From: a virus
Taxonomy: Duplodnaviria > Heunggongvirae > Uroviricota > Caudoviricetes
Strand: one strand, 5' to 3'
Virus record (IMG/VR): IMGVR_UViG_3300031576_000029
Span: 1-64,000 of that record
DNA: 64,000 nt
Shown one piece after another: positions 1,209-25,510 of this stretch. Position numbers and translations under genes: made by a program. The first letter of the stretch is position 1. The number at the start of each line of letters is the position of its first letter. The notes under the pieces were generated by a model. The model saw nothing but the letters and a program-made list of their open reading frames with translations. It ran no database searches and was not told the DNA's origin.

Positions 1209-1457
1209 ATGAAAAAAACAGAGAATGGAACAATAGTAGTAACTGAAAAAGTAAATGCTACTCTTACAGTTGATAGCGAACATAAATTGTATAGTATTTA
1301 TGATGTAAAATTAAGTGATTTGGAAGAACTATTAAAACAAGCTAAAAAAATGAAAAAATATTGGACTAGTGAAAATCGTACGGTGCCTAAAAAAATTAAA
1401 GCTTCTTTTGTTCATTTAAATCCTAGATTAACATTTTATGTGCATTTTGATGGGTAA
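1209..1457 (+). CDS. Hypothetical protein
   Basis: 82-aa ORF with an AGGAG ribosome-binding site. Confidence 0.5.
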   Translation: MKKTENGTIVVTEKVNATLTVDSEHKLYSIYDVKLSDLEELLKQAKKMKKYWTSENRTVPKKIKASFVHLNPRLTFYVHFDG

Positions 1458-1557
1458 AATATGATTAAAAAAATTATAACAGATGAAACACATAAGCCTA
1501 TTAAAATTTGGACAGATGATGTAGAAGTTGAAGTAGAATATTTAGAACTTATTAAAG

Positions 1558-2307: not shown

Positions 2308-2308
2308 A

Positions 2309-2599
2309 ATGAAAATTAAATCTTTAACATTTGGATTTAGTAATCATATAACCAAAGAAGAATTAGAAAAAGCATATTCTGAAGGTATGATTAAAAAGTC
2401 TAATTTAGTTAACGAAGCACACTATTTAGGTACTTGTAGAAATTCTTATGTAGCTAAATGGATCAGCAAAGATAATTGTTTCTACTATATGAGAACTAAA
2501 TTTGGAGATACTTTTATAGAATCAATAAAACATCCAGAGGATGATGATAGATTTGATTTTTTTATTCCTATGGAAAAGATTGAAGATATATATGAATAG
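2309..2599 (+). CDS. Hypothetical protein; start trimmed from ORF 2159..2599
   Basis: The ATG at 2309 directly follows the stop codon of the previous gene. Confidence 0.4.
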   Translation: MKIKSLTFGFSNHITKEELEKAYSEGMIKKSNLVNEAHYLGTCRNSYVAKWISKDNCFYYMRTKFGDTFIESIKHPEDDDRFDFFIPMEKIEDIYE

Positions 2600-2725
2600 A
2601 TATAATATAATGGGAACTTACGATGGTTAAAAAAAGTATGAAAAGACTAAAAAGATTTAAACAATATGAATATGCTGTAGTTATTTTTACTATTGCTCTC
2701 ATATTACTTGTAATGAAAGTCGTAG

Positions 2726-2995
2726 ATGTTTTCAGAAGCGGAAATTAAAGAAGCTGTGATGTGGTATGTGATTCATAATCAACATCATTTAAAAGAAGAA
2801 TTAAAAGATTTAATACAACAGAGAAATGATCTTATTAAAAAAGAAGATGAAGTATTTCATGATGATATTACAACTCAATTCGAGAAAATGGCAAAAAGTA
2901 TTATTTGTGAAAAAATAGGAAAAGACTTGGCTTTATCTCCCGAATCTGTTATTATAATTTTAGATGATTTAAACATGGACGAACTTATTGCTTGA
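2726..2995 (+). CDS. Hypothetical protein
   Basis: 89-aa ORF. Confidence 0.4.
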   Translation: MFSEAEIKEAVMWYVIHNQHHLKEELKDLIQQRNDLIKKEDEVFHDDITTQFEKMAKSIICEKIGKDLALSPESVIIILDDLNMDELIA

Positions 2996-3020
2996 CAAAG
3001 GATTTGGAATTTGATAAACT
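2992..3020 (+). promoter_or_regulatory. Sigma70-like promoter for the Ro60 gene: TTGACA, 17-nt spacer, TGnTAAACT
   Basis: Consensus -35 box, an extended TG, and a 4/6 match at -10, about 125 nt upstream of the Ro60 ATG. Confidence 0.45.
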
Positions 3021-3078
3021 AAGAGTAGTACAATAGCCGAATGGCTGTACTCTTTCATTGTAACACTGAGGGTCGAAG

Positions 3079-3110
3079 ATAATCGATTATTGGATTATAT
3101 CATCGATTAT
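3079..3110 (+). promoter_or_regulatory. Pair of ATCGAT-centred palindromes (ATAATCGATTAT, ATCATCGATTAT) in the Ro60 5' leader; candidate operator
   Basis: One perfect 12-bp palindrome and a near-copy 20 bp downstream. Confidence 0.35.
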
Positions 3111-3146
3111 CAATTCCTTATCCTCCTTCTTTCTTAGGAGAACAGT

Positions 3147-4736
3147 ATGAATTATTCAAATTTCTTATCCAAGAAGACAACTCCTCAAACACAACCTATT
3201 TTTGGTCGCAATGATCAAAAACTTAATAATGCCGGAGGATATGTATTTGATGTTCCAGATCAAGCATTACTCGAAAGATTTCTTACGATTGGTACAGAAA
3301 ATGGTACTTATTATGTAAGTGAACAAAAGCTCACTGTTGATAATGCTAAACGCATGATTGAGATTATTAAAAAAGATGGAAAGAATGTTGTTCAAACTCT
3401 CCTTAATTTTACAGAAAACAACAGAGCACTTAAACAAGATCCATCTATTTTTGTGTTAGCTTTAGCTTGCACTTATGGAGATGCCGATACAAAGAAATTT
3501 GCTTATAATGCCATTCATAAAGTATGTAGAACATCTACTCATTTATTTACTTTCTGTCAAAATGTTCAAGATTTAAGAGGATGGAGTAGAGGATTAAGAA
3601 CCGGAGTATCTCAGTTTTATTTATCTAAAAGTCCAAAAGATGTTGCTTATCAACTTGTTAAATATCGTCAACGAAATGGATGGACACATAGAGATGTTCT
3701 AAGACTAGCTCATACTAATCCTAGACTATCTACTGGATATTTGTATTTATTTCACTATGCAGTAAATGGTTCTTTAAAAATGAGCATGGATGTTCCTGAT
3801 ATTATTCATGCATTTGAAAATGCTCAAGATACCGATGATGTTAAAGAATTGGTAGATTTAATTAAAAGATACAATTTAACTTGGGAAATGGTTCCAACAG
3901 AAAAATTAAATAATAAAGAAGTTTTAGCTGCTCTTCTTGAAAATATGCCTATGACAGCTCTACTCAGAAATTTAAACAGATTTGCTATTTCAGGTCTGAC
4001 AAATGGACGTAGAGAATATCATACAAATTTTATTGTTGAAAGACTTAATGATTTGAATCTTCTTAAGAAATCTCATGTACATCCAATTACTCTTTTAAAT
4101 ACAATGAAAATCTATAATTCAGGTCATGGAATGAAGGGTAAACAAACTTGGACTCCCAATCAAGAAATTGTTGATGCTCTTAATAGTTCATTTGAACTAT
4201 CTTTTCAAGCTGTCGAACCTACAAATAAGTCTATTCTTATTGCGGCAGATGTCAGTGGTAGCATGTCTCATTCTAATGTTGGTGGAATGGCTTTAAGTCC
4301 TATCGAAATAGCAGCTGCTTTGCTTCTAACTACTTATAAAACTGAACCAAATGCAGAAGCTGTTTTGTTTGATACTGTTGTGTACCCAACAAAATTTGGC
4401 ACAAGAACAAGTTATGATGCAGTTCTCCAAACTGTTAAAAATATTTGTGGAGGAGGAACTGATTGTTCACTTCCATTCAAACATGCATTGAGCACTAGAA
4501 CTAAATATGATGCTATTATGACTTTAACAGATAGTGAAACATGGGCTGGAAGTCAACATCCTATTCAAGCATATGCAACGTACAAACAAACTGTTAATGT
4601 AAATACTAAAGGAATTGTTGTTGGAATGGTAGCTAATGAATGTACATTATTTCCTGCTGAAGATTTAGATGCTCTCAATATTGCTGGTATGGATAGTTCA
4701 ATACCCGAATTAATTCGTAATTTTATTAAGGATTGA
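3147..4736 (+). CDS. rsr: Ro60 (Rsr) orthologue: TROVE domain plus C-terminal vWA domain
   Basis: The N-terminal GGYVFDVPDQALLERFLTIGTENGTYYVSEQKL matches the TROVE signature. The C-terminal half has a vWA MIDAS motif, IAADVSGSMS. Length is 529 aa. Confidence 0.8.
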   Translation: MNYSNFLSKKTTPQTQPIFGRNDQKLNNAGGYVFDVPDQALLERFLTIGTENGTYYVSEQKLTVDNAKRMIEIIKKDGKNVVQTLLNFTENNRALKQDPSIFVLALACTYGDADTKKFAYNAIHKVCRTSTHLFTFCQNVQDLRGWSRGLRTGVSQFYLSKSPKDVAYQLVKYRQRNGWTHRDVLRLAHTNPRLSTGYLYLFHYAVNGSLKMSMDVPDIIHAFENAQDTDDVKELVDLIKRYNLTWEMVPTEKLNNKEVLAALLENMPMTALLRNLNRFAISGLTNGRREYHTNFIVERLNDLNLLKKSHVHPITLLNTMKIYNSGHGMKGKQTWTPNQEIVDALNSSFELSFQAVEPTNKSILIAADVSGSMSHSNVGGMALSPIEIAAALLLTTYKTEPNAEAVLFDTVVYPTKFGTRTSYDAVLQTVKNICGGGTDCSLPFKHALSTRTKYDAIMTLTDSETWAGSQHPIQAYATYKQTVNVNTKGIVVGMVANECTLFPAEDLDALNIAGMDSSIPELIRNFIKD

Positions 4737-4799
4737 ACGAGTCGAATGAGAATCGGTTATTTTCAAGCTATATCCGATTTTCGATAACTTATTCGTTCA
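4734..4799 (+). ncRNA. Candidate Y-RNA-like module 1, directly 3' of rsr
   Basis: Terminal 7-bp stem TGAACGA/TCGTTCA encloses an internal aatcgg/ccgatt hairpin. It shares a GAGTCGAATGA box with module 2. Confidence 0.3.
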
Positions 4800-4845
4800 T
4801 TAATTTGGAATGTAGTGAATCATAGATATTTTTATCAATTTATTT

Positions 4846-4937
4846 TTAGCGAGTCGAATGAATTGATTAGAGTTCGAATCTCATCTTGAAGCGATAGCTT
4901 CTTGTAGGAACCCGATTTCTAAATCTTCATTCGCTAA
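4846..4937 (+). ncRNA. Candidate Y-RNA-like module 2 with a tRNA-like T-arm mimic
   Basis: The terminal stem TTAGCGA..GAATGAA / TTCATTCGCTAA carries a 5-nt bulge. Inside it are GAG-TTCGAAT-CTC (a T-loop consensus) and the GAAGC-gata-GCTTC hairpin. A U-rich tract follows. Confidence 0.35.
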
Positions 4938-4976
4938 TAACAAATTTTATTTTCTATTTGCGAATAGGAGGATTTT

Positions 4977-6245
4977 GTGAAAGTTAAGAAGATAGATGCC
5001 AAAGGGAGAAAATACTATACTTTAGTATATAATCCTAAATCGAAGAAAACTATCTTTATTCAAGAATTTCCTCAAACTCTTCATATTAGAGAATCAAATA
5101 CCGATAACGGTAAACCTAGACATCAAACACGTTTTATTATTTCTTTTAAGAGAAATCAAGTTAATCTATATCAAAAAGGTACAGGTAATAGAATAGTAAA
5201 TGTTACTACTACTCCTGAAGCCTTTGATAAGTATATTAATAATAGTTTGGCTTTTGCAAAAACAGATAAAACTAATAAATTTTTCTTGTTAGGTAAAAGA
5301 TCGGCATTAAACAAATTAATCTTACAAAAAGCTAAACAATGTAAAATACGAACATTAATTAAATTAAATGCCACTAGATTTTATTCGGGAAGTTTAGTTT
5401 ATATTTTAGCCTTTCCTTTGACCTCTGAATTTATAATAAGTAGATTCCCTAAAGAAATAGTTCATTTGGCCGGATCTAGAAAAAATCCTATTTCAAGATT
5501 CTTAAGAAAATTTTCTATTAGAGAAGCAGTAGAAAGTGGATTAAAAACTAAATCAAAAAAGCTTATAAAATTAATAACTGAAAGTAATAATCTATACAGA
5601 ACATTTTTATTTGTCTATACCCTAAGAAAATTGATACCTTTAGATTACATATTTGAAATAATTCTTAATAATACTAGTCAAAGTTTAGGTTTCATCAATG
5701 AACAACAAGTTAGAATAACAAGAAAATTACTAAAAAATTATGGTAAAGAACGCATTAAGATTTTGATGTCTAAGACTTTTAATGATTTTGAATTAATAGA
5801 TTCAGCAAAACAATGGAATGATTTTAAAAATCAAATAACTTTACCAGATAAACCAGATTCTATTAAAACATTACATGATTATATTTCAAAAGAATATAGA
5901 AAAGTAAAAACCCAGAATCATAAATTAAATATGATTAAAACGTTTAAAATTTTAGATGGTTTTCAAATTAAAAATTATAGATTCCATTTACCAAAAAACA
6001 CACATGAGTTAATTGAATGGGGTCAAAAATTGAATAATTGTATAGCAAGCTATTCAGATAGCGCAATGAGACAAGATATTCAATTAGTTGGAGTATTAAA
6101 AGATGATCAACTTACTTATGCTTTAGAATTATCTAAACAGGGTAAGATAATCCAATTTAGAGGAAAAAATAATTCTTCACCTGATCTTTCGGATTATAAA
6201 TTAATTACACATACTATCACTAACTTATTGACCATTTATCCATAA
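4977..6245 (+). CDS. PcfJ-like domain protein
   Basis: The C-terminal block ELIEWGQKLNNCIASY...IIQFRGKNNSSP resembles the PcfJ-like signature. It has a GTG start with an AGGAGG ribosome-binding site. Confidence 0.45.
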   Translation: MKVKKIDAKGRKYYTLVYNPKSKKTIFIQEFPQTLHIRESNTDNGKPRHQTRFIISFKRNQVNLYQKGTGNRIVNVTTTPEAFDKYINNSLAFAKTDKTNKFFLLGKRSALNKLILQKAKQCKIRTLIKLNATRFYSGSLVYILAFPLTSEFIISRFPKEIVHLAGSRKNPISRFLRKFSIREAVESGLKTKSKKLIKLITESNNLYRTFLFVYTLRKLIPLDYIFEIILNNTSQSLGFINEQQVRITRKLLKNYGKERIKILMSKTFNDFELIDSAKQWNDFKNQITLPDKPDSIKTLHDYISKEYRKVKTQNHKLNMIKTFKILDGFQIKNYRFHLPKNTHELIEWGQKLNNCIASYSDSAMRQDIQLVGVLKDDQLTYALELSKQGKIIQFRGKNNSSPDLSDYKLITHTITNLLTIYP

Positions 6246-6262
6246 AAGGGTATAATATTTAC

Positions 6263-6607
6263 ATGACTATTCAAGAAGCAATCGAAACTACCAAACCTTT
6301 TAGACTTCCTAAATGGAGCAATAATTGGATAACTGTAGATTTAAACGCCAACTTATTTAAGTTATCTGGTCCTGATAGTCCTGATCTATGGAAATTATTT
6401 CCAAATGATTTTTTATCTCTTGATTGGGAAGTAAAATTGTGTAACACGCACAATACAATCGCTATTAATCAACTACATCTTCTCTGTGCAACTTGTCTAG
6501 GAGAAGCTGTAACAAACATAGTTCCGCCAGAAATAAAACTTGTTCCTAAATGTTCATGTGATTTAAGATTAATTCTTTCTAAAGGATGTCAATGTGGAGG
6601 AATATAA
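6263..6607 (+). CDS. Cysteine-rich hypothetical protein
   Basis: 114-aa ORF with C..C and CSC...CQC clusters. Confidence 0.4.
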   Translation: MTIQEAIETTKPFRLPKWSNNWITVDLNANLFKLSGPDSPDLWKLFPNDFLSLDWEVKLCNTHNTIAINQLHLLCATCLGEAVTNIVPPEIKLVPKCSCDLRLILSKGCQCGGI

Positions 6608-6790
6608 TAAAAGAATTCAGGAACCTGATGCATTGCTATGGTTTAAAGTAGGCTCACAAGGAGCTGATAGAGTAATTTATTATTCGTGCCTGATTTGCTG
6701 TCACCTGCATTGTGGTGAGATTGGCTAAGCAACTATTCCAGGGCCAGCATGCTGAGTGCCTAGAAAGCTGGTAAAATTTTGGAGTTGTTA
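6608..6790 (+). other. ORF-free, GC-enriched intergenic island; candidate small structured RNA
   Basis: No ORF on either strand. Local G+C is well above the flanks. Contains TCACC/GGTGA and CCAGC/GCTGG hairpins and an AGCATGCT palindrome. Confidence 0.2.
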
Positions 6791-7095
6791 TGAAAGCCAA
6801 GAATATAAGTAGACTTGATGAGCTTTGCAATGAAATGTTTCAGCTTTATCAAAAAGGCGGTGAAGAAGATTCATTGATTCAAGGCATTCATATTGCTCTG
6901 TCGATGGCTGAGATCGGATTGAAACTAGCTAAAAGTATTAAAATTCTCGAAAAAGCCCTATATAATATTATGTACAGTGCTTTATCACAAGGAATTGATG
7001 GAGATAAAAGTACAGTTGAAGATCATAAACAATATTCACTAGATCAAGCATCTGAAGCACTTCATGAAATGGAAAAAATATTAAATGAACCTTAA
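6790..7095 (+). CDS. Hypothetical protein
   Basis: 101-aa ORF. Confidence 0.4.
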   Translation: MKAKNISRLDELCNEMFQLYQKGGEEDSLIQGIHIALSMAEIGLKLAKSIKILEKALYNIMYSALSQGIDGDKSTVEDHKQYSLDQASEALHEMEKILNEP

Positions 7096-7300
7096 AAATA
7101 GAGCAATTAATATTCAAATAATTCGTACCAAAAAGGACCCCAAAATATATATGACATTAACTCATTTAATTAGTGGACTATCTGTTTCAAGTAAAGGCAT
7201 TTCTGAATCTAAATTAAGAAAAAAGTTATTAAAAGAATTACAACGAAAAATTATATCTTATGTTAAAGACTATATTGCTAATCATCCTATTAAAAAATGA
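7085..7300 (+). CDS. Hypothetical protein
   Basis: 71-aa ORF, translationally coupled to its neighbours. Confidence 0.35.
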   Translation: MNLKNRAINIQIIRTKKDPKIYMTLTHLISGLSVSSKGISESKLRKKLLKELQRKIISYVKDYIANHPIKK

Positions 7301-9153
7301 ATCCATCTAATAGACTTCTTAGTGAAATAGTGGCATTTCGTACATATGCTAAATATCTACCACATTTAGGTAGAAGAGAATCATTTGAGGAAACAATTAA
7401 TAGATGTCTCACTATGCATCTGGATAGATTTCCTAAACTATCCAGAGACATTATTAAAGCTTTTCAAAAAGTACATGAAAAAAAAGTAATGCCTTCGATG
7501 CGTTCTTTGCAATTTGCGGGTGAAGCTATATTAAAAAATAATATAAGACAATATAATTGTGGATTTGTGCATATAAATAATCCAAGAGCTTTTGGAGAAG
7601 CTTTATTCCTATTATTATCAGGAACAGGAGTAGGTTATTCAGTACAAAAAAGACATGTTAATGAATTACCAATTATTAAACTTCCTCGGGAAGAAGGCAT
7701 TTTTATTATTCATGATTCAATTCAAGGTTGGGCACAAAGTTTAGATATTTTACTAGAAGCCTATTTTTTTAATCGTATACGGCCTATATTTGATTTTTCT
7801 AAGATTAGACCTAAAGGATCATATTTAGTAACTAGCGGAGCTAAGGCACCAGGTCCAGAGCCTTTAAAATCAATGCTATTACAAGTAGAGAATAAACTTA
7901 AGCAAGCTATAGGAAGAACTTTAAAATCAATAGAAATACACGATATTATTTGTATTTCAGCAGATTGTGTATTGAGTGGTGGTATTAGAAGAGCAGCACT
8001 CATAAGTTTATTTGATAAAGACGACAATGAAATGCTCGAAGCCAAACATGGTAATTGGCAAGAAAAATATCCACATAGGGCTAGAGCAAATAATAGTGCA
8101 GTTCTTTTAAGAGATAAAAGTTCTAAAGAAGAATTTAATTATATATTTCAAAAGTGTATAGATTCTAATTGTGGTGAGCCTGGATTTGATTTTACTTCTG
8201 ATTTAGATTGGGGAGCGAATCCATGTCATGAAATATCTTTACATTCTAATCAATTATGTAATCTTACTACAATAAATCAAAGTGGTATTAAAGATAAAAA
8301 AGATTTTTTAAGCAGAGTTTATTCTGCAACATTGATTGGTACTTTACAAGCTTCTTATACTAATTTTCCATATATTAGACCAGCATGGCAATTAATAACG
8401 GAACAAGAAGCATTACTTGGAGTATCATTTACTGGAATAGCTGATAATGGTAATAAAATTCCTAAAGCTTGGTTAAAAGAAGCAGCAAGATTAGCTAAAA
8501 AAGTAAATGAACAATACTCTAAAATAATCGGAATCAATCTCTCTGCTAGAATTACAACCGTGAAACCGGAGGGTACATCTAGTTGTGTATTTAGTTCGAG
8601 TAGTGGAATACATGCCAGACATTCTGAGTATTATTTGCGTCGAATTAGAATGAACAAAAATGATGCTTTGGCGAATTATTTATCTAAAAACATTCCTGAA
8701 TTAATGGAAGATGATTTCTTTAGTCCTAATGGAGTTGTATTCACCATTCCTCAAGAATCTCCGAGTCATGCAATTTTACGTATAAATGAAAGTTCTCTTG
8801 ACTTATTTCAAAGGGCATTATATTATCATGACAACTGGATAAAGCCTGGCCATAGAATGGGCATAAACACACATAATGTTTCTTTAACTATTTCATATAA
8901 ATCGGAAGAAATAAACGAATTAAGAGAAGCAATGTGGAATAATAGAAATAAATATAATGCAATTTCATTGCTTCCATTTGATGGTGGAATATATCAACAA
9001 GCCCCATTTGAAACATGTAATAAAGAAACCTTTGATAAATATAATCAAATGATTAAAGAAATTGATTTGCGTAAAATTAAAGAAGAAGAAGATAATACTG
9101 AACGTATTAATATGCTTGCATGTATTGGCGGAGTATGTGAGTTAGAATTATGA
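7297..9153 (+). CDS. Ribonucleotide reductase catalytic subunit, probably class II (B12-dependent) type
   Basis: RNR motifs are present: NCGFV for the first active-site Cys, NPCHEISL for the Cys/Glu, and the TTVKPEGTSS loop. A C-terminal Cys pair CIGGVC is present. No R2 subunit gene is nearby. Confidence 0.6.
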   Translation: MNPSNRLLSEIVAFRTYAKYLPHLGRRESFEETINRCLTMHLDRFPKLSRDIIKAFQKVHEKKVMPSMRSLQFAGEAILKNNIRQYNCGFVHINNPRAFGEALFLLLSGTGVGYSVQKRHVNELPIIKLPREEGIFIIHDSIQGWAQSLDILLEAYFFNRIRPIFDFSKIRPKGSYLVTSGAKAPGPEPLKSMLLQVENKLKQAIGRTLKSIEIHDIICISADCVLSGGIRRAALISLFDKDDNEMLEAKHGNWQEKYPHRARANNSAVLLRDKSSKEEFNYIFQKCIDSNCGEPGFDFTSDLDWGANPCHEISLHSNQLCNLTTINQSGIKDKKDFLSRVYSATLIGTLQASYTNFPYIRPAWQLITEQEALLGVSFTGIADNGNKIPKAWLKEAARLAKKVNEQYSKIIGINLSARITTVKPEGTSSCVFSSSSGIHARHSEYYLRRIRMNKNDALANYLSKNIPELMEDDFFSPNGVVFTIPQESPSHAILRINESSLDLFQRALYYHDNWIKPGHRMGINTHNVSLTISYKSEEINELREAMWNNRNKYNAISLLPFDGGIYQQAPFETCNKETFDKYNQMIKEIDLRKIKEEEDNTERINMLACIGGVCELEL

Positions 9154-10688: not shown

Positions 10689-10922
10689 ATGAGGAATAAT
10701 AAAATGAAATTATTAACAATAATTCCTAATACTCGTGATGCAATATTATACAGTGATACTTTATTTAAAGCCTTCGAAGATTCTAATATAGGATATGAAG
10801 GTGATATCGAAATATTCTATAATGATCAAGAATCTGTGATTAATGTTTCTGTACCAGAAGAGGAATTTGAGGAAGCTTTTAATATTATGCAAGAAGTTAT
10901 CAGAGAAGGTCCACCAAAATGA
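10689..10922 (+). CDS. Hypothetical protein
   Basis: 77-aa ORF. Confidence 0.35.
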   Translation: MRNNKMKLLTIIPNTRDAILYSDTLFKAFEDSNIGYEGDIEIFYNDQESVINVSVPEEEFEEAFNIMQEVIREGPPK

Positions 10923-11545
10923 ATGTTAGATTAATTCACATAACACCTAATTCTGAACGTTTAATTGCTTATTGTGCCAGAGTATCTAGTCCTAATCAAG
11001 ATAATTCTGAATATGAGAAACTTATTAATTATTGTATTAAACATAAACATTGGTCTATTTTTGAAATGGCTAATCTTTGTATTGAAATTAAAACATCGAG
11101 AGCAATAGCTCAACAAATTCTCAGACATAAGTCATTTTCTTTTCAAGAATTTAGTCAACGATTTTCCGATAATCTTGATTTTGAATTTTATGAAGCACGT
11201 AAACAAGATACAAAAAATAGACAAGGAGGAACAAAATCAGTTAATGATGAAACTGATAAATGGTTTTTAGAAGCACAAGAAAGAGTTGTACATCAATCGA
11301 TAAATTTGTATCATCAAGCTATAGAAAAAGGTATAGCTCGTGAATGTGCACGATTTCTTCTTCCTCTTTCCACAATAACAAAGATTTATATGAACGGAAG
11401 CGTACGAAGTTGGGTGCATTATATTTTGTTAAGAACTGAAGAAAATACTCAAAAAGAACATCGAAATATAGCAAATGATTGTAAAAGAATATTTGTGGAA
11501 CAACTTCCGACGATTTCAAAAGCTTTAGGCTGGATTAATCCTTGA
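10919..11545 (+). CDS. thyX: Flavin-dependent thymidylate synthase ThyX
   Basis: ThyX motif RHKSFSFQEFSQRF (RHR-X7-S), and an N-terminal block consistent with the ThyX fold. Confidence 0.8.
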   Translation: MNVRLIHITPNSERLIAYCARVSSPNQDNSEYEKLINYCIKHKHWSIFEMANLCIEIKTSRAIAQQILRHKSFSFQEFSQRFSDNLDFEFYEARKQDTKNRQGGTKSVNDETDKWFLEAQERVVHQSINLYHQAIEKGIARECARFLLPLSTITKIYMNGSVRSWVHYILLRTEENTQKEHRNIANDCKRIFVEQLPTISKALGWINP

Positions 11546-14345: not shown

Positions 14346-14415
14346 AAAGGGACTGAGTACCCACAACAGTGGGCATCATCTTTCCTCCTAACTCGGTCCC
14401 TTTGATTTCTGTTTT
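14346..14415 (+). terminator. Long bulged hairpin followed by a U-tract: intrinsic terminator or RNase III-type processing site
   Basis: 13-bp stem AAAGGGACTGAGT / ACTCGGTCCCTTT with one G-U pair. It has a nested CCCAC-aaca-GTGGG hairpin, then TTTGATTTCTGTTTT. Confidence 0.5.
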
Positions 14416-19456: not shown

Positions 19457-19813
19457 ATGAATAGAATTATACAATTAGCTAAAAAACTCAGTTATAAATC
19501 AGATCATAGAGCACACAAGCTTGGTTGTGTAATTGTTAACAAAAATAAAATTATATCATTGGGATGGAATAGAATTAAAACACATCCCAAATCTCCTCAT
19601 AAATTTAAATCAATTCATGCCGAATTTCATGCTATCTTAGGTGTAGATGAACGAGAATTAAATGGAGCGACTGTTTATATTTATAGAGAACAAAAGAATG
19701 GTAAACTAGGTAAAGCTCGTCCTTGTTCTAGTTGTTGGAAAATGTTAGAAAATGTAGGAATTTCTGAAATAATATATTCAGATTATGATGGAATGAAAAG
19801 AGAAAGGATATGA
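19457..19813 (+). CDS. dCMP deaminase, zinc-dependent
   Basis: HAEFHAI and PCSSCWKML zinc motifs. Start moved to the ATG at 19457, just after the stop of the previous gene. Confidence 0.8.
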   Translation: MNRIIQLAKKLSYKSDHRAHKLGCVIVNKNKIISLGWNRIKTHPKSPHKFKSIHAEFHAILGVDERELNGATVYIYREQKNGKLGKARPCSSCWKMLENVGISEIIYSDYDGMKRERI

Positions 19814-20595
19814 GCATTCCTAAAGATATTACTTCTAAACATTTAACAATTGATGCCTGGGCGATATTAAGTGGTTACAGAGGAAGTATAGCTCACGGAA
19901 TGTATGTTCCAAAAGATAATCCAAATAGTATTGATGATAAAGATGTTATGACAGTATTTCTAGCTCCATTTGATTATTATACTACATTAGAAACTCATGG
20001 GTTATCTCGCGGAACGAAAGAAATTTTGGAAGGTGAATGGGATGTTGTTTGTTACGAATTTAAAAAATTTATTAGTTTATTAATTAAAGGTAATCCAAAT
20101 GTTATTTCTTTATTATGGCTAGAACCTAATTATTATATTAAGGTAACTGATATAGGACAATCTTTATTGATTAATAGAGATGTATTTTCATCAAAGCAAA
20201 TTTATCATTCCTTTTCTGGATATGCTTATTCGCAATTAAAAAAAATGACAAGCTTTTCTTTTGAAGGATATATGGGAGAAAAACGAAAAAAATTAGTAGA
20301 AAAATTTGGATATGACTGTAAAAATGCAGCTCATTTAATTCGTCTTTTACGTATGGCTATAGAATTTTTGCATGAAGGGGTATTTTTTGTTCAAAGACCA
20401 GATGCTACTCAATTGCTAGATATTAAATTAGGAATGTGGTCACTAGATCAAGTTAAAAAAGAAGCTGAAAATTTATTTAAAAGGACAGAAGAAGCTTATG
20501 ATAAATCTAAGCTACCTAATCAAGTTGATTTGAAAAAAATAAATGAATTAATGGTTGATTGTTTTAAAGAACATTTTTATGGAGAATTCATATGA
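19810..20595 (+). CDS. Pol-beta-superfamily nucleotidyltransferase
   Basis: GS...(15 aa)...DDKDV pattern near the N-terminus, 261 aa. Immediately upstream of the RNA ligase. Confidence 0.45.
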   Translation: MSIPKDITSKHLTIDAWAILSGYRGSIAHGMYVPKDNPNSIDDKDVMTVFLAPFDYYTTLETHGLSRGTKEILEGEWDVVCYEFKKFISLLIKGNPNVISLLWLEPNYYIKVTDIGQSLLINRDVFSSKQIYHSFSGYAYSQLKKMTSFSFEGYMGEKRKKLVEKFGYDCKNAAHLIRLLRMAIEFLHEGVFFVQRPDATQLLDIKLGMWSLDQVKKEAENLFKRTEEAYDKSKLPNQVDLKKINELMVDCFKEHFYGEFI

Positions 20596-21683
20596 GCGAC
20601 TTTCGGGTAGAAATTACTGATATCAAAGCAGTAAGACATCATCCCAATGCTGATAGATTAGATATTGTAAATATATTTGGTTGGGAAGTTGTAACATCTA
20701 AAGATACTTATAAAGTTGGTGATAAAGTATGTTATTTTCCTGTTGATTGTATTATAAGTGAAGATTTGGAAAAAATATTGTTTCCTCCTGATTCTAAAAT
20801 TAAATTAACTAATAGACGTATTAAAAGTATAAAATTGCGCGGACAAATAAGTCAAGGAATGATTGCTAATCCTAAACTTATAGGAGTGGATCATTTTAAT
20901 ATCGATAAAAATGTAGCTGAGTATTTAAAATGTATTAAATATGAACCACCAGAAATATCTAAACCAAGAGGAATGCAGGTTAGATCCAAAAAACAAGTCA
21001 ATCCTAATTTTCGTAAATATACTGATATTCAAAATTATAAATATTATAATGAAGTATTTCAACAAGGGGAACTTGTTGTTATTACTGAAAAATGTCACGG
21101 CACCTCGTGGCGTGGAGGTTGGGTGAAAAACGATGCTAATACTTTGTGGAAGAAAATAAGAAAATTATTTGGTCGGCTTCCTGAATGGGAATTTGTTTGG
21201 GGAAGTCATAATGTTCAAATTCAAAATAAATTATTTCATAAGGGCTTTTATGATGTAGATGTATATTCGAAAATGGTTAAACAATATGATTTAAAAAATC
21301 TTATTCCAAAAGGTTATGTTCTTTATGGAGAAATAGTTGGTTATAATATTCAAAAGAATTTCCATTATGATTGTGTTCCAGGGGAACATAAACTCTTTTT
21401 ATTTGATGTAAAATTTAATGACAAATGGTTAGATTATGAAGATTTTAAAATTACAGTAGATGCTTTAAAATTATCTAGAGTTCCTGAATTATTTACTGGT
21501 CCATATGATCCGGCTATTGTTGATAAACTTAGAAGCGGAACTAGTATATTAGATGAAAATACCATTAAAGAAGGTATTGTAATTAAAACAATTAAAGAAA
21601 CAGAATGTTCACTTGGAAGAAAAATATTAAAATTTATAAATGATGAATATTATTTATTAAAAGACGGAACGGATTATCATTAG
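20592..21683 (+). CDS. Rnl2-family RNA ligase fused to an N-terminal Myf/EMAP-type tRNA-binding domain
   Basis: N-terminal HPNADRLDIVNI matches the tRNA-binding-domain signature. Ligase motif I EKCHGTS (KxHG as in Rnl2), motif IV LFLFDV, motif V KEGIVIK. Confidence 0.6.
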   Translation: MSDFRVEITDIKAVRHHPNADRLDIVNIFGWEVVTSKDTYKVGDKVCYFPVDCIISEDLEKILFPPDSKIKLTNRRIKSIKLRGQISQGMIANPKLIGVDHFNIDKNVAEYLKCIKYEPPEISKPRGMQVRSKKQVNPNFRKYTDIQNYKYYNEVFQQGELVVITEKCHGTSWRGGWVKNDANTLWKKIRKLFGRLPEWEFVWGSHNVQIQNKLFHKGFYDVDVYSKMVKQYDLKNLIPKGYVLYGEIVGYNIQKNFHYDCVPGEHKLFLFDVKFNDKWLDYEDFKITVDALKLSRVPELFTGPYDPAIVDKLRSGTSILDENTIKEGIVIKTIKETECSLGRKILKFINDEYYLLKDGTDYH

Positions 21684-21874
21684 TGGAAAAAACAGAACAA
21701 AAATTTCATAAAATATATGGTGTATGGCCGCATTTAGGTTGGGGAGTTATGATCGTATTATATACTCCAACCGAATGTGAATATGTTCATTTTACATTCG
21801 AAGATACAAATGAAAAACAAATAATCAATCAAAAACTTTGGGATGAATATAATTCAAATGAACGAATAAAATAA
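21683..21874 (+). CDS. Hypothetical protein
   Basis: 63-aa ORF. Confidence 0.35.
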   Translation: MEKTEQKFHKIYGVWPHLGWGVMIVLYTPTECEYVHFTFEDTNEKQIINQKLWDEYNSNERIK

Positions 21875-22866
21875 TGGGATTTTTCAAAGTTAAAAGTAAA
21901 AAGAAATTAATTGATCTTAAAGAAGGCGAACAAATTCCTGAAAGTGATTTTGCCTCAATTTGTCCAGATGGAACGTTTATTCAATTTGAATATACCGAAG
22001 AAGAATATAAATCTCAACCTTACGAAGTTAAACCTGGAATTTGGACTATACAAAAGACAAATCGTGGCTTAAAACTAGAACCAACATCTTTTGTCACTGA
22101 AAATATTTTAGAAAGTTTTATAAATACTAAAGAACTCATGAATAAGATTGGTTGTTTCTTTAGAAATTTTGATAAGTATAAGAAATACGGAATTGAAATA
22201 CCTAAAAGAGCAGCTTTATTATATGGTCCCGCAGGTGCAGGAAAATCTACTTCACTTATTAAAGTCTGTCAACACTATGCAAAAGATGGAACAACTACTA
22301 TTGTTATATGGCCTACAGATAAATTAGATCCTTATGAAGTCAAAGATTTTTTTAAAACATTCACTTATACTGATGTTCATAAAGTAATTATGATAGCTGA
22401 AGATATAGGTGGAGCTGAAGCAGAACATGTTAAAATAAAAAGTGTGAGCAGTTTATTATCTTTGTTAGATAATAAAGAAAAAATTTTTACTAAGCCTACA
22501 TTTATTATAGCTACAACAAATTTTCCGGAAAATTTCTTAGGTAATATAACTAATCGGCCCGGAAGATTTGATGATAAATTAGAAATGACATATCCTAATT
22601 CTGAAGCAAGATATGAACTTCTCAAATTTTTTGGACAAGGTGAGATTCCAGAAAATGTTTTACTTCAAATTAAACAAAAGAAATATTCTGAATTATCTGC
22701 AGCTCATATACACGAAGTGATTATTCGCTCTGCAATTCATGAAATTTCTATAGAAGATGCATTAGATGGCGTACAAAAAGAGATTGAAATATATAAAAAG
22801 AGTTTCGATAAGAAAAAATTAAGTAAGATTGGAATTACCAATTCTGTATATGAGGACGATGATTAA
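21874..22866 (+). CDS. Classic AAA-family ATPase
   Basis: Walker A LYGPAGAGKST, Walker B MIAEDIGG, and ATTNFPE...TNRPGRFDDKL in the sensor/second region of homology. Confidence 0.65.
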   Translation: MGFFKVKSKKKLIDLKEGEQIPESDFASICPDGTFIQFEYTEEEYKSQPYEVKPGIWTIQKTNRGLKLEPTSFVTENILESFINTKELMNKIGCFFRNFDKYKKYGIEIPKRAALLYGPAGAGKSTSLIKVCQHYAKDGTTTIVIWPTDKLDPYEVKDFFKTFTYTDVHKVIMIAEDIGGAEAEHVKIKSVSSLLSLLDNKEKIFTKPTFIIATTNFPENFLGNITNRPGRFDDKLEMTYPNSEARYELLKFFGQGEIPENVLLQIKQKKYSELSAAHIHEVIIRSAIHEISIEDALDGVQKEIEIYKKSFDKKKLSKIGITNSVYEDDD

Positions 22867-24464: not shown

Positions 24465-24492
24465 ATTGACAAATGTTGTAATTAATGTATAA
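24465..24492 (+). promoter_or_regulatory. Near-consensus sigma70 promoter: TTGACA, 16-nt spacer, TATAAT
   Basis: Perfect -35 and -10 hexamers. An AAGGAG ribosome-binding site and an ATG at 24513 follow. Confidence 0.6.
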
Positions 24493-24512
24493 TAAAACAA
24501 TAAGGAGATCAA

Positions 24513-25135: not shown

Positions 25136-25510
25136 ATGTCTGGAGTAAAACATGACCAAGGTAAACCACGTTGCTCGCTTTTACCTTCCATTGCTTTATT
25201 AAAGATAGCTGAAATTCTTACATTTGGTGAAAAGAAATATAAAACTCATAACTGGAGAAAAGGCATGGCATGGAGTAGAATACTCGATGCTACTTATAGA
25301 CATTTACTTAAATACAACAATAATATAGCAACTCGTAAAGATAAAGAAACCAGAATTAGCCATCTTGCTCATGCTGCTACTAATTTATTATTTCTTATTG
25401 AATATGAGGAGTATAATATAGGTGAAGATGATTTATGGAAAGGACATGGAAATCATGAATTACCGAGAAGAAGTCCTCAAAACGGTAAACGTAAAACTAA
25501 ACCAACTTGA
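25136..25510 (+). CDS. dATP/dGTP diphosphohydrolase N-terminal-type domain protein; MazG-associated module
   Basis: HDQGKPR...YG..KY...NWRKG...RH pattern typical of the domain usually fused to MazG. Confidence 0.45.
   Translation: MSGVKHDQGKPRCSLLPSIALLKIAEILTFGEKKYKTHNWRKGMAWSRILDATYRHLLKYNNNIATRKDKETRISHLAHAATNLLFLIEYEEYNIGEDDLWKGHGNHELPRRSPQNGKRKTKPT

What the first reader, a model, noticed from the sequence alone, without database searches (positions are those of the whole stretch)
19810..21683. RNA-repair-like pair: a Pol-beta-type nucleotidyltransferase next to an Rnl2-family ligase with an N-terminal tRNA-binding domain
The ORF at 20592 begins with the Myf/EMAP tRNA-binding signature (HPNADRLDIVNI). 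This is the same fold as the PheT/MetG tRNA-binding appendages.

It continues into a covalent nucleotidyltransferase ligase with motif I EKCHGTS. The KxHG variant is diagnostic of T4 Rnl2-type RNA ligases. It also has motif IV FDV and motif V EGIVIK.

A tRNA-targeting domain fused to an RNA ligase suggests a counter-measure to host anticodon nucleases, as T4 Pnk/Rnl1 counters PrrC. The partner here is a small GS...DxD nucleotidyltransferase rather than a kinase-phosphatase, which could be a CCA- or end-healing activity.

Together with the Ro60/Y-RNA locus, this phage invests unusually heavily in RNA metabolism.
Basis: partly seen in the sequence, partly recalled or inferred. Interest (0 to 1): 0.6.

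Follow-up and report, generated by a model that had tools for sequence, protein, structure and literature searches.

The report
Phage RlaP nucleotidyltransferase plus Rnl5 RNA ligase
Two overlapping phage genes encode an RlaP-family RNA 3'-end nucleotide-adding enzyme and an Rnl5-family (not Rnl2) nick-sealing RNA ligase; this RNA-repair pairing is already described in the literature, so this is an ordinary new example rather than a new system.

Summary
Both ORFs are real, sit at the stated coordinates and are joined by a 4-nt ATGA stop/start overlap.

- **ORF 19810-20595** is a full-length RlaP (Pfam PF10127, 66.9 bits against a cutoff of 23). Its GS and Asp43/45/78 catalytic residues are intact.
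- **ORF 20592-21683** is an ATP-dependent RNA ligase of the Rnl5 (DraRnl/NgrRnl, TIGR02306) family, not Rnl2.
  - It has the N-terminal OB domain (PF21189) and a C-terminal NTase domain (PF09414), with no C-terminal appendage.
  - Profile against PDB: NgrRnl 2e-29, T4 Rnl2 7e-11.
  - AlphaFold model against PDB: NgrRnl TM 0.68-0.72 over the full length, Rnl2 0.43.
- **The tRNA-binding signature.** It is the defining Rnl5 N domain, and the similarity was published in 2004-2007. In NgrRnl this domain is shown to help lysine adenylylation, not to bind tRNA.
- **The pairing.** RlaP was named in 2016 for its linkage to RNA ligases. A 2025 preprint shows it adds 1-2 NMPs to RNA 3'-OH ends.
- **Linkage strength.** It is recurrent but loose: RlaP lies within 10 kb of 14 of 80 related viral ligase loci, and PNKP within 10 kb of 13 of 80.
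- **This phage** has Ro60 but no recognisable kinase-phosphatase.

Verdict: new member of a known kind; low interest.

The parts
19810..20595 (+). RlaP-family (PF10127) Pol-beta-superfamily nucleotidyltransferase, 261 aa
   Evidence: Pfam RlaP E=3e-18, 66.9 bits against a cutoff of 23, residues 25-245 on profile positions 27-244 of 249. phrog_388 nucleotidyltransferase 6.3e-48. 3196 homologues, all those listed carrying PF10127. AF2 model pLDDT 92.3, with an N-terminal alpha/beta NTase domain, a C-terminal helical domain and a terminal helix, as described for PfRlaP (PMC12776372).
19882..20043 (+). RlaP catalytic core: G25-S26 (19882-19887), D43 and D45 (19936-19944), D78 (20041-20043)
   Evidence: These columns are invariant in a 30-sequence alignment. 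The sequence was read directly. The family's three strictly conserved catalytic aspartates are described in PMC12776372.
20592..20595 (+). ATGA overlap: ligase start codon overlaps the RlaP stop codon. The same arrangement occurs at 19810-19813 between dCMP deaminase and RlaP.
   Evidence: Read directly from the sequence. Translational coupling is an inference from the overlap.
20592..21683 (+). Rnl5-family (DraRnl/NgrRnl, TIGR02306) ATP-dependent RNA ligase, 363 aa
   Evidence: TIGR02306 RNA_lig_DRB0094 1.1e-42, residues 8-354 on profile positions 5-339 of 341. phrog_968 RNA ligase 6.5e-63. Profile against PDB: NgrRnl 2.1e-29, T4 Rnl2 6.6e-11. AF2 model pLDDT 88.2. Foldseek: the top 13 hits are NgrRnl, E about 2e-19, TM 0.68/0.72.
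20592..20951 (+). Ligase N-terminal OB-fold domain (about aa 1-120; contains HPNADRLDIVNI, D52, R83, K116)
   Evidence: PF21189 PHA02142 OB-fold, 61.6 bits, residues 7-91. D52 = NgrRnl D53 and K116 = NgrRnl K121, which contact the ATP gamma-phosphate and its metal (PMC7261155). R83 and K116 are invariant and D52 is D in 45 of 46 sequences. Weak similarity to PheT B2/tRNA_bind.
21009..21680 (+). Ligase nucleotidyltransferase domain (about aa 140-363): motif I T165-E-K167-C-H169-G170 (K167 codon at 21090-21092), motif Ia S205-H206, motif III E247, motif IV E327-G-I-V-I-K332, motif V K347. The protein ends 16 aa after motif V, so there is no C-terminal appendage.
   Evidence: PF09414 RNA_ligase, residues 162-349. 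Residue correspondence to NgrRnl K170/E227/E312/K326 from the HMM alignment and to DraRnl T163/K165/H167/G168 (PMC1807946). K167, H169, G170, S205, E247, E327, G328 and K347 are invariant in 46 sequences. Motif I was read directly.
3147..4736 (+). Context only: Ro60/TROVE protein (529 aa) encoded 15 kb upstream in the same early region
   Evidence: PF05731 TROVE 2.7e-44 and PF25045 vWA_Ro60 1.5e-45. In a 174-kb viral contig a Ro60 gene lies immediately upstream of a homologous ligase (L007, L012).

Best explanation
The two genes are a phage copy of a known RNA-repair pairing. The first product is an RlaP-family nucleotidyltransferase. The second is an Rnl5-family ATP-dependent RNA ligase.

Inferred mechanism, from characterised relatives:
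1. RlaP uses NTPs and Mn2+ to add one or two nucleotides, without a template, to the 3'-OH of a broken RNA. This restores length lost at the break.
2. The ligase adenylylates its own Lys167. The N-terminal OB domain positions the ATP pyrophosphate leaving group for this step.
3. The ligase transfers AMP to the 5'-phosphate end and seals it to the RNA 3'-OH. It prefers breaks held in a base-paired (nick-like) context.

The genes are probably co-translated, given the ATGA overlap, as part of the early nucleotide-metabolism and replication operon. The most likely biological role is to repair host or phage RNAs (tRNA or rRNA) cut by host ribotoxin defences, including those that also excise a nucleotide.

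No kinase-phosphatase was found. Acting alone, the pair can therefore only handle 3'-OH/5'-PO4 ends. Otherwise it must rely on a host enzyme or an unrecognised end-healing enzyme.

Status of each claim:
- Shown here: the family identities, the intact catalytic residues, the gene overlap and the recurrent linkage.
- Inferred: all enzymatic activities and the in vivo targets.
For: **Identity**
- RlaP.
- Ligase as Rnl5.

**Biochemistry of relatives**
- Pf/PaRlaP add 1-2 NMPs to RNA 3'-OH. They prefer Mn2+, do not act on DNA, and prefer the 5' half of a cleaved-tRNA mimic. Treatment restores aminoacylation of a tRNA that has lost one nucleotide. The product ends are compatible with 5'-phosphate ligases (PMC12776372).
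- Rnl5 enzymes seal 3'-OH/5'-PO4 nicks when the 3'-OH strand is RNA. They need the N domain for step 1 (PMC4408790, PMC7261155, PMC1807946).

**Linkage**
- RlaP was named for its operonic association with RNA ligases and is predicted to restore lost nucleotides before ligation (PMC7824862 citing Burroughs & Aravind 2016).
- In my census of 80 viral loci encoding this ligase clade:
  - RlaP lies within 10 kb in 14 loci, all on the same strand.
  - A PNKP (HAD_PNKP plus P-loop kinase) lies within 10 kb in 13 loci, usually abutting the ligase.
  - Four loci carry RlaP, PNKP and ligase together.
  - Ro60 lies near the ligase in 2 loci.
- For comparison, RlaP matches only 594 of 50,697 sequenced phage records.
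- The cultured phage CcrColossus has an RlaP (224 bits) 1.4 kb upstream of its Rnl5-type ligase.
- ATGA overlap at the gene junction.
Against: - No activity was measured for these proteins.
- Linkage is loose.
  - Only 2 of 80 ligase loci have RlaP directly adjacent.
  - From the RlaP side, only 4 of 80 loci have this ligase type within 10 kb.
  - The closest syntenic relatives carry the ligase in the same slot without RlaP.
- No polynucleotide kinase-phosphatase was detected in the window or in contig positions 51.8-72.4 kb. This enzyme is needed for the 2',3'-cyclic-P/5'-OH ends made by most anticodon nucleases.
- No tRNA genes are present in the window.
- Rnl5 enzymes prefer duplex nicks, and their physiological substrates are called 'uncharted' (PMC5397189). 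The only phenotype known for an Rnl5 is in DNA repair after irradiation.
- NgrRnl Arg149, an ATP gamma-phosphate contact, aligns to Asn148 here.
- Motif Ia has His206 where most of the clade has Arg.
- TIGR02306 scores 146.1, just under its equivalog cutoff of 151.15.
Confidence: 0.6

Rival explanations
1. Replication or repair 'ribo-patch' sealing. The ligase, with or without RlaP, works on phage DNA rather than RNA. It would seal nicks whose 3'-OH side ends in ribonucleotides. Such ends could be left by gap filling with rNTPs, by primer remnants, or after uracil excision. This is the role proposed for DraRnl in Deinococcus.
For: - The ligase sits in a fixed slot inside the replication module: DnaB, PolB, UDG, dCMP deaminase, [RlaP], ligase, AAA, exonuclease. 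Syntenic relatives that lack RlaP keep the ligase in the same slot (L028 and L031).
- Pfam recognises no DNA ligase across contig positions 1-72.4 kb.
- The only in vivo phenotype of an Rnl5 is radiation sensitivity with delayed genome reassembly. DraRnl needs at least 2 ribonucleotides at the 3'-OH and accepts DNA in the 5'-PO4 and template strands (PMC5397189).
- The closest RlaP relative lies directly after a UDG gene. dCMP deaminase is among the more frequent RlaP neighbours (5 loci) and an RNase HII-like cluster recurs in 3; both calls were made by eye from motifs, not checked against Pfam.
Against: - Characterised RlaPs do not extend DNA 3'-OH ends at all (PMC12776372). RlaP therefore could not start a ribo-patch on DNA.
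- Rnl5 enzymes do not seal all-DNA nicks (PMC4408790), so this ligase cannot be the general replicative ligase.
- Phage early modules routinely mix RNA-repair and replication genes. In Aes508, for example, the ligase lies among gp32, gp59, frd and td. Position alone is weak evidence.
- In other phages the same ligase clade abuts PNKP and Ro60, which are RNA-repair partners.
Confidence: 0.2
2. The two enzymes are neighbours but do not act in one pathway. RlaP has its own role, for example tailing or marking RNAs, or an anti-defence or signalling nucleotidyltransferase activity. The ligase acts independently.
For: - From the RlaP side, only 4 of 80 viral loci have this ligase type within 10 kb. 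RlaP neighbourhoods are extremely diverse, with 496 clusters among 544 neighbouring proteins.
- Close RlaP homologues sit next to UDG, next to a HAD_SAK_2 phosphatase, or among HEPN/MNT toxin-antitoxin genes, with no ligase within 6 kb.
- The best solved-structure match of the RlaP model is the Hailong HalB oligonucleotide synthase, although only weakly: E=2.6e-4, TM about 0.4.
Against: - RlaP near the ligase is enriched at least ten-fold over its overall frequency in phages (14 of 80 loci against 594 of 50,697 whole records).
- It is always on the same strand as the ligase.
- The stop/start overlap seen in this window also occurs in L038.
- Published comparative genomics reports that RlaP distribution mirrors that of RNA ligases in jumbo phages (PMC7824862).
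- My census looked only for Rnl5-type ligases. Other ligase families near RlaP were not scored.
- There are no PADLOC hits.
- The HalB match is weak. The PfRlaP structure was not returned by either PDB search, so it appears not to be in the PDB copy searched.
Confidence: 0.15
3. One reading: a T4 Rnl2-type ligase that has acquired a tRNA-binding (Myf/EMAP) domain to target broken tRNAs, acting as a PrrC-type counter-measure.
For: - Motif I is KxHG, as in T4 Rnl2 (the T4 Rnl2 motif is recalled from memory, not tested here).
- The NTase core resembles Rnl2 as its second-best match.
- The N-domain resembles the tRNA_bind/PheT B2 fold.
- PfRlaP prefers a cleaved-tRNA mimic (PMC12776372).
Against: - The Rnl2 model scores 19.7 bits against a cutoff of 197, and there is no Rnl2 C-terminal domain.
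- The N-domain is the ancestral Rnl5 module, found from Deinococcus to Naegleria. Its demonstrated role is in adenylylation (PMC7261155). tRNA binding has never been shown for it.
- Pfam tRNA_bind is below threshold, at 17.3 bits against 27.
- No Pnkp is present to heal PrrC-type ends.
Confidence: 0.05

Closest known systems
Rnl5 family of ATP-dependent nick-sealing RNA ligases (Deinococcus radiodurans DraRnl/DR_B0094; Naegleria gruberi NgrRnl, PDB 5COT; TIGR02306; Pfam PF21189 + PF09414)
   Same: - Domain order: an N-terminal OB fold, then the NTase domain, with no C-terminal appendage.
- Full-length HMM match and full-length structural match.
- Conserved residues: the motif I lysine in a DraRnl-like T-x-K-x-H-G, E247, E327, K347, and the N-domain residues D52, R83 and K116.
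- Phage homologues of DraRnl have been noted since 2007 in Aeromonas, Caulobacter, Mycobacterium and Sinorhizobium phages.
   Different: - Only about 20% identical to NgrRnl.
- About 20 extra residues between motifs I and Ia, inferred from the K-to-S spacing (38 residues here, 20 in DraRnl).
- NgrRnl R149 aligns to Asn148.
- His206 replaces the usual Arg/Lys in motif Ia.
- The score is 5 bits under the TIGR02306 equivalog cutoff.
- Activity is untested.
[quoted passage not shown]
   Same: - Full-length Pfam match.
- GS plus three invariant aspartates.
- NTase domain followed by a helical domain in the model.
- Encoded next to an RNA ligase.
   Different: - The characterised enzymes sit in RtcB-RtcA operons, next to a 3'-phosphate ligase. 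Here the partner is a 5'-phosphate (classic) ligase, whose end chemistry suits the RlaP product directly.
- Sequence similarity to the Pseudomonas enzymes was not measured here.
- The phage subfamily is usually found without an adjacent Rnl5 ligase.
T4 Pnkp + Rnl1 tRNA repair (counter to PrrC), and PNKP + Rnl5-type ligase cassettes of mycobacteriophages (for example Murphy gp88/gp91)
   Same: A phage-encoded ligase-based RNA repair module expressed with the early genes. Related viral loci carry PNKP abutting this ligase clade.
   Different: - This phage has no detectable kinase-phosphatase.
- The ligase belongs to a different family from Rnl1 and is nick-specific in characterised members.
- The accessory enzyme adds nucleotides rather than healing phosphate ends.
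T4 Rnl2 / kinetoplastid REL1 (Rnl2 family)
   Same: A nick-sealing biochemistry that is similar in outline. The NTase core is the second-best structural match. Motif I is of the KxHG type.
   Different: There is no Rnl2 C-terminal helical domain, and an N-terminal OB domain is present instead. The Rnl2 HMM score is far below threshold.
tRNA_bind / Trbp111 / EMAP / PheRS-beta B2 OB-fold domains (PF01588)
   Same: OB fold with an HPNAD-type strand. Weak sequence and structural similarity to PheT B2, YtpR and 3bu2.
   Different: - Below the Pfam threshold, and assigned instead to PF21189.
- In Rnl5 the domain contacts ATP and supports adenylylation.
- tRNA binding has not been demonstrated.

Membership tests
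Rnl5 RNA ligase family | N-terminal OB-fold domain fused to a C-terminal NTase domain, with no C-terminal appendage | tested here: met
   PF21189 at residues 7-91 and PF09414 at 162-349 of 363 aa. The AF2 model aligns to NgrRnl over its full length, TM 0.68/0.72. The protein ends 16 aa after motif V.
Rnl5 RNA ligase family | Motif I lysine nucleophile and the essential NTase residues (Dra T163/K165/H167/G168, S185, E230, E305, K326; Ngr K170, E227, E312, K326) | tested here: met
   T165, K167, H169, G170, S205, E247, E327 and K347 align to these residues (PMC1807946). All except T165 (S or T in 45 of 46 sequences) are invariant in 46 clade members. Exceptions: the Dra K186 position is His206 here (Arg in 35 of 46), and Ngr R149 aligns to Asn148.
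Rnl5 RNA ligase family | N-domain residues that engage the ATP gamma-phosphate and metal (Ngr R4, D53, K121; Dra R79) | tested here: inconclusive
   D52 = Ngr D53 and K116 = Ngr K121 by the HMM alignment. R83 is probably Dra R79. R83 and K116 are invariant, D52 nearly so. The Ngr R4 equivalent could not be aligned: window R5 is K or R in 26 of 46 sequences.
Rnl5 RNA ligase family | Score at or above the curated TIGR02306 (RNA_lig_DRB0094) equivalog cutoff | tested here: not met
   146.1 bits against a cutoff of 151.15, E=1.1e-42, over the full length of the model. This is a marginal miss. JGI labels homologues of this clade 'RNA ligase (TIGR02306 family)'.
Rnl5 RNA ligase family | Seals 3'-OH/5'-PO4 nicks only when the 3'-OH strand is RNA; prefers Mn2+; the N domain is needed for adenylylation | not testable with these tools
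   Requires purified protein and nicked-duplex assays.
Rnl2 RNA ligase family (T4 Rnl2, REL1) | N-terminal NTase domain followed by the Rnl2-specific C-terminal helical domain; match to TIGR02307 | tested here: not met
   TIGR02307 scores 19.7 bits against a cutoff of 197.15. There is no sequence after motif V. Foldseek to T4 Rnl2 covers only the NTase core, TMq 0.43.
ATP-dependent DNA ligases | NTase domain followed by a C-terminal OB domain; closest similarity to DNA ligase families | tested here: not met
   No DNA-ligase Pfam family was hit. DNA ligases appear only at Foldseek E of 1e-4 or weaker, below four RNA ligase families. The OB domain is N-terminal.
RlaP (PF10127) | Full-length match above the Pfam gathering score | tested here: met
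   66.9 bits against a cutoff of 23, residues 25-245 on profile positions 27-244 of 249.
RlaP (PF10127) | Pol-beta NTase catalytic signature: GS motif plus three conserved acidic residues | tested here: met
   G25, S26, D43, D45 and D78 are invariant in 30 sequences and were read directly from the sequence.
RlaP (PF10127) | Architecture of the solved PfRlaP: N-terminal NTase domain, C-terminal helical domain, and a terminal helix packing back | tested here: inconclusive
   The AF2 model (pLDDT 92.3) has an alpha/beta domain at residues 18-112, then helices 131-260, which is consistent with the description in PMC12776372. The PfRlaP coordinates were not returned by either PDB search, so no superposition was possible.
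RlaP (PF10127) | Genomic association with an RNA ligase gene | tested here: met
   A 4-nt overlap with the ligase gene. RlaP is recurrent near this ligase clade: 14 of 80 viral loci and in CcrColossus.
RlaP (PF10127) | Adds 1-2 NMPs to RNA 3'-OH; does not act on DNA | not testable with these tools
   Biochemical assay needed.
tRNA_bind / Myf / EMAP domain (PF01588) | Match above the Pfam gathering score | tested here: not met
   17.3 bits against a cutoff of 27, and only residues 74-91 align. The domain is claimed by PF21189 at 61.6 bits.
tRNA_bind / Myf / EMAP domain (PF01588) | Same OB fold as PheRS-beta B2 and Trbp111 | tested here: met
   Foldseek: PheRS-beta 6oz5_D 8e-5, YtpR 9a77_B 1e-3, tRNA-binding protein 3bu2_A 9e-3. 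TIGR00472 positions 45-130 match at 3.3e-5. The similarity is already stated in PMC1807946.
tRNA_bind / Myf / EMAP domain (PF01588) | Binds tRNA | not testable with these tools
   Needs binding assays. This has not been shown for any Rnl5 N domain in the papers read.

The most novel reading that the evidence does not exclude
This phage uses a minimal, kinase-free 'add-two-and-seal' module. RlaP supplies the short 3' ribonucleotide run that Rnl5 ligases require (at least 2 rNMPs for DraRnl). The module would act in the phage's uracil-excision and replication context (UDG, dCMP deaminase, RlaP, ligase in one overlapping gene string), not on tRNA. This would give the Rnl5 family, whose physiology is called 'uncharted', its first defined partner enzyme and pathway.
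Probability: 0.1. Interest if true: 0.55.

Novelty: new member of a known kind. Interest (0 to 1): 0.2.

Why it matters
This matters little as a discovery. Both families are curated in Pfam and NCBIfam. Their genomic association was published in 2016 and reviewed for jumbo phages in 2021. RlaP biochemistry appeared in a 2025 preprint. The finding does correct the annotation from Rnl2 to Rnl5.

It also provides a compact natural pairing of RlaP with a classic 5'-phosphate ligase, translationally coupled and without a Pnkp. The end chemistry of this pair fits directly, unlike the RtcB-linked RlaPs studied so far. It could therefore be a convenient system for testing whether RlaP really feeds a ligase, and for probing the still unknown physiological substrates of Rnl5 ligases.

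Tried and rejected
- **Nucleotide search.** blastn of the 7-kb region against 50,697 phage records found no match. The phage has no sequenced close relative, so no annotation could be borrowed.
- **RlaP against solved structures.** The sequence search gave only a spurious acyltransferase hit at E=0.53. The Foldseek search gave only weak hits to Hailong HalB and other NTases. The PfRlaP structure was not returned, so no structural membership test was possible.
- **PADLOC.** No hits for either protein, so a defence-system reading was dropped.
- **RNA genes.**
  - Rfam at gathering threshold over the whole window: nothing.
  - Rfam at E<=1 over 1-7400, around Ro60: nothing.
  - ARAGORN: no tRNAs.
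- **Promoter and terminator scan.** Counts equal the shuffle expectation and are not informative.
- **Kinase-phosphatase search.** PNKP, metallophosphoesterase, HD and CYTH-like proteins that neighbour the ligase elsewhere were searched against the window and against contig positions 51.8-72.4 kb. None was found.
- **Unannotated window ORFs.** Five were scanned with Pfam. None is an end-healing enzyme.
- **HMM sensitivity.** My first RlaP HMM was too narrow: it scored CcrColossus RlaP at only 5e-4 although Pfam gives 224 bits. I rebuilt it with diverse seeds, and the count moved only from 13 to 14 of 80.
- **Papers not held.** Burroughs & Aravind 2016 (PMC5062991) and the NgrRnl structure paper (PMC4653202) could not be read. 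Their content is cited only through papers that quote them.
- **DNA-ligase reading.** Considered and rejected.

Full report
**1. The observation**

ORFs 19810..20595 (261 aa) and 20592..21683 (363 aa) are both present on the + strand. The ligase start codon overlaps the upstream stop codon as ATGA. The same overlap joins the upstream dCMP deaminase gene to the first ORF. This gives a tightly packed string of three genes, deaminase, NTase and ligase. Translational coupling is my inference from the overlaps.

The window is an AT-rich (about 30% GC) phage-like sequence. It corresponds to positions of about 109-64108 of a 78.7-kb metagenomic contig, ENA ERZ27247320 k141_1618901. No nucleotide-level relative exists among 50,697 phage records.

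**2. What the first ORF is**

It is a full-length member of Pfam PF10127, 'RlaP, RNA repair pathway DNA polymerase beta family'. The score is 66.9 bits against a gathering cutoff of 23, E=3e-18. It also matches phrog_388 nucleotidyltransferase at 6e-48.

It has 3196 homologues in the large protein collection. Those listed are 55-69% identical and all carry PF10127. In a 30-sequence alignment, G25, S26, D43, D45 and D78 are invariant. This is the Pol-beta GS motif plus three carboxylates.

The AlphaFold model is confident, with pLDDT 92.3. It shows an alpha/beta NTase domain followed by a helical domain, as described for the PfRlaP crystal structure (PMC12776372). That structure was not returned by either PDB search. 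The best structural hits were weak: Hailong HalB at E=2.6e-4 and TM about 0.4. There were no hits in PADLOC.

**3. What the second ORF is**

Pfam finds an N-terminal 'PHA02142 OB-fold' domain (PF21189, residues 7-91) and an RNA_ligase NTase domain (PF09414, residues 162-349). Family-level comparisons all point to Rnl5 rather than Rnl2:

| Test | Rnl5 (DraRnl/NgrRnl) | Rnl2 (T4 Rnl2) |
|---|---|---|
| NCBIfam | TIGR02306: 1.1e-42, 146.1 bits (cutoff 151.15), full length | TIGR02307: 19.7 bits (cutoff 197) |
| 46-sequence profile against PDB | NgrRnl 2.1e-29, both domains | 6.6e-11, part of the NTase core only |
| AF2 model (pLDDT 88.2) by Foldseek | top 13 hits, E about 2e-19, TM 0.68/0.72, full length | 4e-9, TMq 0.43 |

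DNA ligases appear only at Foldseek E of 1e-4 or weaker.

Catalytic residues map as follows (PMC1807946; PMC7261155):

- T165-E-K167-C-H169-G170 corresponds to DraRnl T163/K165/H167/G168.
- E247 corresponds to NgrRnl E227.
- E327 corresponds to NgrRnl E312 (motif IV).
- K347 corresponds to NgrRnl K326 (motif V).
- In the N domain, D52 and K116 correspond to NgrRnl D53 and K121. R83 probably corresponds to DraRnl R79.

These residues are invariant or nearly so across the clade. There are three deviations:

- NgrRnl R149 aligns to Asn148.
- Motif Ia has His206 where 35 of 46 relatives have Arg.
- About 20 extra residues lie between motifs I and Ia. I inferred this from the K-to-S spacing compared with DraRnl.

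The protein ends 16 residues after motif V, so there is no C-terminal appendage.

The enzyme is therefore an Rnl5-family ligase. KxHG is not diagnostic of Rnl2, because DraRnl has it too.

**4. The 'tRNA-binding' N-terminus**

The resemblance is real but weak:

- TIGR00472 (PheT) positions 45-130 match residues 5-101 at 3.3e-5.
- Pfam tRNA_bind scores 17.3 bits, below its cutoff of 27.
- Foldseek recovers PheRS-beta, YtpR and a Trbp111-like protein for this domain alone.

This is the defining N domain of all Rnl5 ligases, and its similarity to the PheRS-beta B2 OB fold was already stated by Raymond & Shuman in 2007 (PMC1807946). Its demonstrated role in DraRnl and NgrRnl is to support lysine adenylylation by contacting the ATP gamma-phosphate and its metal (PMC7261155; PMC4408790). 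tRNA binding has not been shown.

**5. What is known about the pairing**

RlaP means 'RNA ligase-associating Pol-beta'. The name was given by Burroughs & Aravind (2016) because these genes share operons with RNA ligases. They predicted that RlaP restores nucleotides lost from RNA ends before ligation, for example after RloC (quoted in PMC7824862). That review reports RlaP as the most prevalent such NTase in jumbo phages, with a distribution that mirrors the RNA ligases.

A December 2025 preprint (PMC12776372) reports the following for two Pseudomonas RlaPs:

- They add one or two NMPs from any NTP, and also from dATP (the only dNTP tested), to RNA 3'-OH ends.
- They prefer Mn2+ and do not act on DNA.
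- They favour the 5' half of a cleaved-tRNA mimic.
- They partly rescue aminoacylation of a tRNA that has lost a nucleotide.

The preprint also notes that the 3'-OH product suits 5'-phosphate ligases directly.

Rnl5 enzymes seal 3'-OH/5'-PO4 nicks in duplexes when the 3'-OH strand is RNA. DraRnl needs at least two ribonucleotides there. Their physiological substrates are 'uncharted'. The only phenotype is radiation sensitivity of a Deinococcus knockout, interpreted as 'ribo-patch' DNA repair (PMC5397189).

**6. How tight the linkage is (my census)**

| Sample | Partner scored | Result |
|---|---|---|
| 80 IMG/VR loci encoding this ligase clade, ±10 kb | RlaP | 14 of 80, all same strand; directly adjacent in 2 (L038 has the same 4-nt overlap) |
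| same | PNKP (PF25109 HAD_PNKP plus P-loop kinase) | 13 of 80, usually abutting |
| same | RlaP plus PNKP together | 4 loci |
| same | Ro60/TROVE | 2 of 80, once immediately upstream of the ligase |
| 80 viral loci encoding close RlaP relatives, ±10 kb | Rnl5-type ligase | 4 of 80; neighbours extremely diverse |
| 73 cellular-genome loci, ±6 kb | RlaP | 5 of 73 |

For scale, RlaP matches 594 of 50,697 phage records.

Close RlaP homologues sit next to UDG, next to a HAD_SAK_2 phosphatase, or among HEPN/MNT genes.

Two cultured phages give named examples:

- CcrColossus has an RlaP (PF10127, 224 bits) 1.4 kb upstream of its Rnl5-type ligase, with tRNA genes nearby.
- Mycobacteriophage Murphy has Pnk two genes upstream of its ligase.

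The association is therefore real and enriched, but loose. This window shows the tightest form of it.

**7. Context in this phage**

The pair lies inside the early + strand block. The gene order is DnaB-like helicase, PolB, UDG, orf96, dCMP deaminase, RlaP, ligase, orf63, AAA ATPase, orf84, exonuclease, then a dGTP-diphosphohydrolase/MazG pair. Further upstream are Ro60, a PD-(D/E)XK nuclease, ThyX and Band_7.

Syntenic relatives of about 94 kb keep the ligase in the same slot between dCMP deaminase and AAA, but have a 67-aa ORF where RlaP is here. RlaP therefore looks like a lineage-specific insertion right in front of the ligase.

Several things were not found:

- No DNA ligase is recognised by Pfam over contig positions 1-72.4 kb.
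- No polynucleotide kinase-phosphatase homologue is detected.
- No tRNA genes and no Rfam families are found in the window.

**8. Most likely mechanism and rivals**

Best explanation (confidence about 0.6): an RNA add-back-and-seal cassette. RlaP extends a trimmed RNA 3'-OH by 1-2 nucleotides and the Rnl5 ligase seals it to a 5'-phosphate end. It would probably serve against host RNA-cleaving defences. Without an end-healing enzyme it is limited to 3'-OH/5'-PO4 breaks, unless a host or unrecognised enzyme supplies healing. All activities and targets are inferred from relatives.

Rivals:

- **Replication or repair 'ribo-patch' role on DNA (about 0.2).** It is supported by the module position, the absence of a DNA ligase and the DraRnl phenotype. 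It is weakened because characterised RlaPs do not touch DNA ends.
- **Independent functions of the two neighbours (about 0.15).**
Its family claim is refuted.

**9. Novelty**

Both families, their association and the N-domain resemblance are all in the literature and in curated profile libraries. This is a new, divergent, uncultivated-phage member of a known kind.

Its modest value is as a clean natural RlaP plus 5'-phosphate-ligase pair for testing the proposed pathway and the unknown physiology of Rnl5. Interest 0.2.

Noticed in passing
window 3147-4736 (+): A Ro60/TROVE protein (PF05731 plus PF25045 vWA_Ro60) is encoded in the early region. No Y-RNA, tRNA-like or any other Rfam family was detected within 1-7400, even at E<=1, and ARAGORN finds no tRNA in the window. 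In a 174-kb viral contig (L007/L012) a Ro60 gene lies immediately upstream of a homologous Rnl5-type ligase.
   Followed up: partly
L032, L033 and L035 (ligase at about 10001-11140 in L035): A recurrent four-gene cassette: PNKP, Rnl5-type ligase, calcineurin-like metallophosphoesterase (PF00149), and a 205-aa protein with no Pfam hit that looks CYTH-like by eye. L035 also has an RlaP 2.3 kb upstream. This is a fuller heal-and-seal set than in the window.
   Followed up: partly
same contig, outside the window (L093 1603-2445; contig about 69.9-70.8 kb): A 280-aa Metallophos (PF00149) protein lies near the terminase genes. It could be a 2',3'-cyclic phosphodiesterase or 3'-phosphatase for RNA end healing, or an ordinary protein phosphatase. 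phmmer finds no homology to the metallophosphoesterases that flank ligases in L032/L035.
   Followed up: partly
window 62232-64000 (-), continuing beyond the window end: The portal gene (1042 aa as called on the contig) carries an intein or homing-endonuclease insertion (Hom_end_hint, Hom_end, LAGLIDADG_3). A GIY-YIG/NUMOD1 homing endonuclease (58715-59392) and a patatin-like phospholipase (57880-58635) lie among the structural genes.
   Followed up: no
window 7297-9153 (+): A 618-aa ORF has no precomputed Pfam family. It shows three weak, sub-threshold hits to ribonucleotide reductase domains (RNR-II insertion domain, barrel domain, alpha domain). It may be a very divergent class II RNR.
   Followed up: partly
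window 21874-22866 (+): The AAA ATPase that always follows the ligase in syntenic relatives (L003-L006, L028) gives weak PADLOC hits to IetA (3.7e-12) and PtuA, and weak PHROG hits to clamp loader and helicase. Its role is unclear.
   Followed up: no
window 24466-24493 (+): A perfect sigma-70 consensus (TTGACA, 16 nt, TATAAT) lies in the intergenic gap after the replication block. A terminator-like hairpin at 14360-14373 lies just upstream of the DnaB-like gene. Together they may bound the transcription unit that contains the pair. Overall, promoter-like counts equal the shuffle expectation.
   Followed up: no
window 25136-25510 and the following ORF (+): A dGTP_diPhyd_N (PF18909) protein is followed by a MazG-family protein. 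With ThyX (10919-11545), dCMP deaminase and UDG, this shows a large investment in dNTP pool editing. The dGTP_diPhyd_N-like protein recurs near the ligase in 4 of 80 related viral loci.
   Followed up: no
L138 10719-11672 and two other RlaP loci; L168 9364-9978 and two others: In the RlaP-centred census, a 317-aa protein with DHH-type motifs (DHH/GGGH-like, judged by eye, not checked against Pfam) lies directly downstream of RlaP in 3 loci. An RNase HII-like protein lies upstream in 3 loci, and dCMP deaminase lies within 4 genes in 5 loci.
   Followed up: no
window about 29500: Gene orientation and GC skew switch here. Genes lie on the + strand with positive skew over 1-29.5 kb (early, replication) and on the - strand with negative skew from 29.7 kb onwards (structural, with a 1643-aa ORF at 35842-40773).
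   Followed up: no
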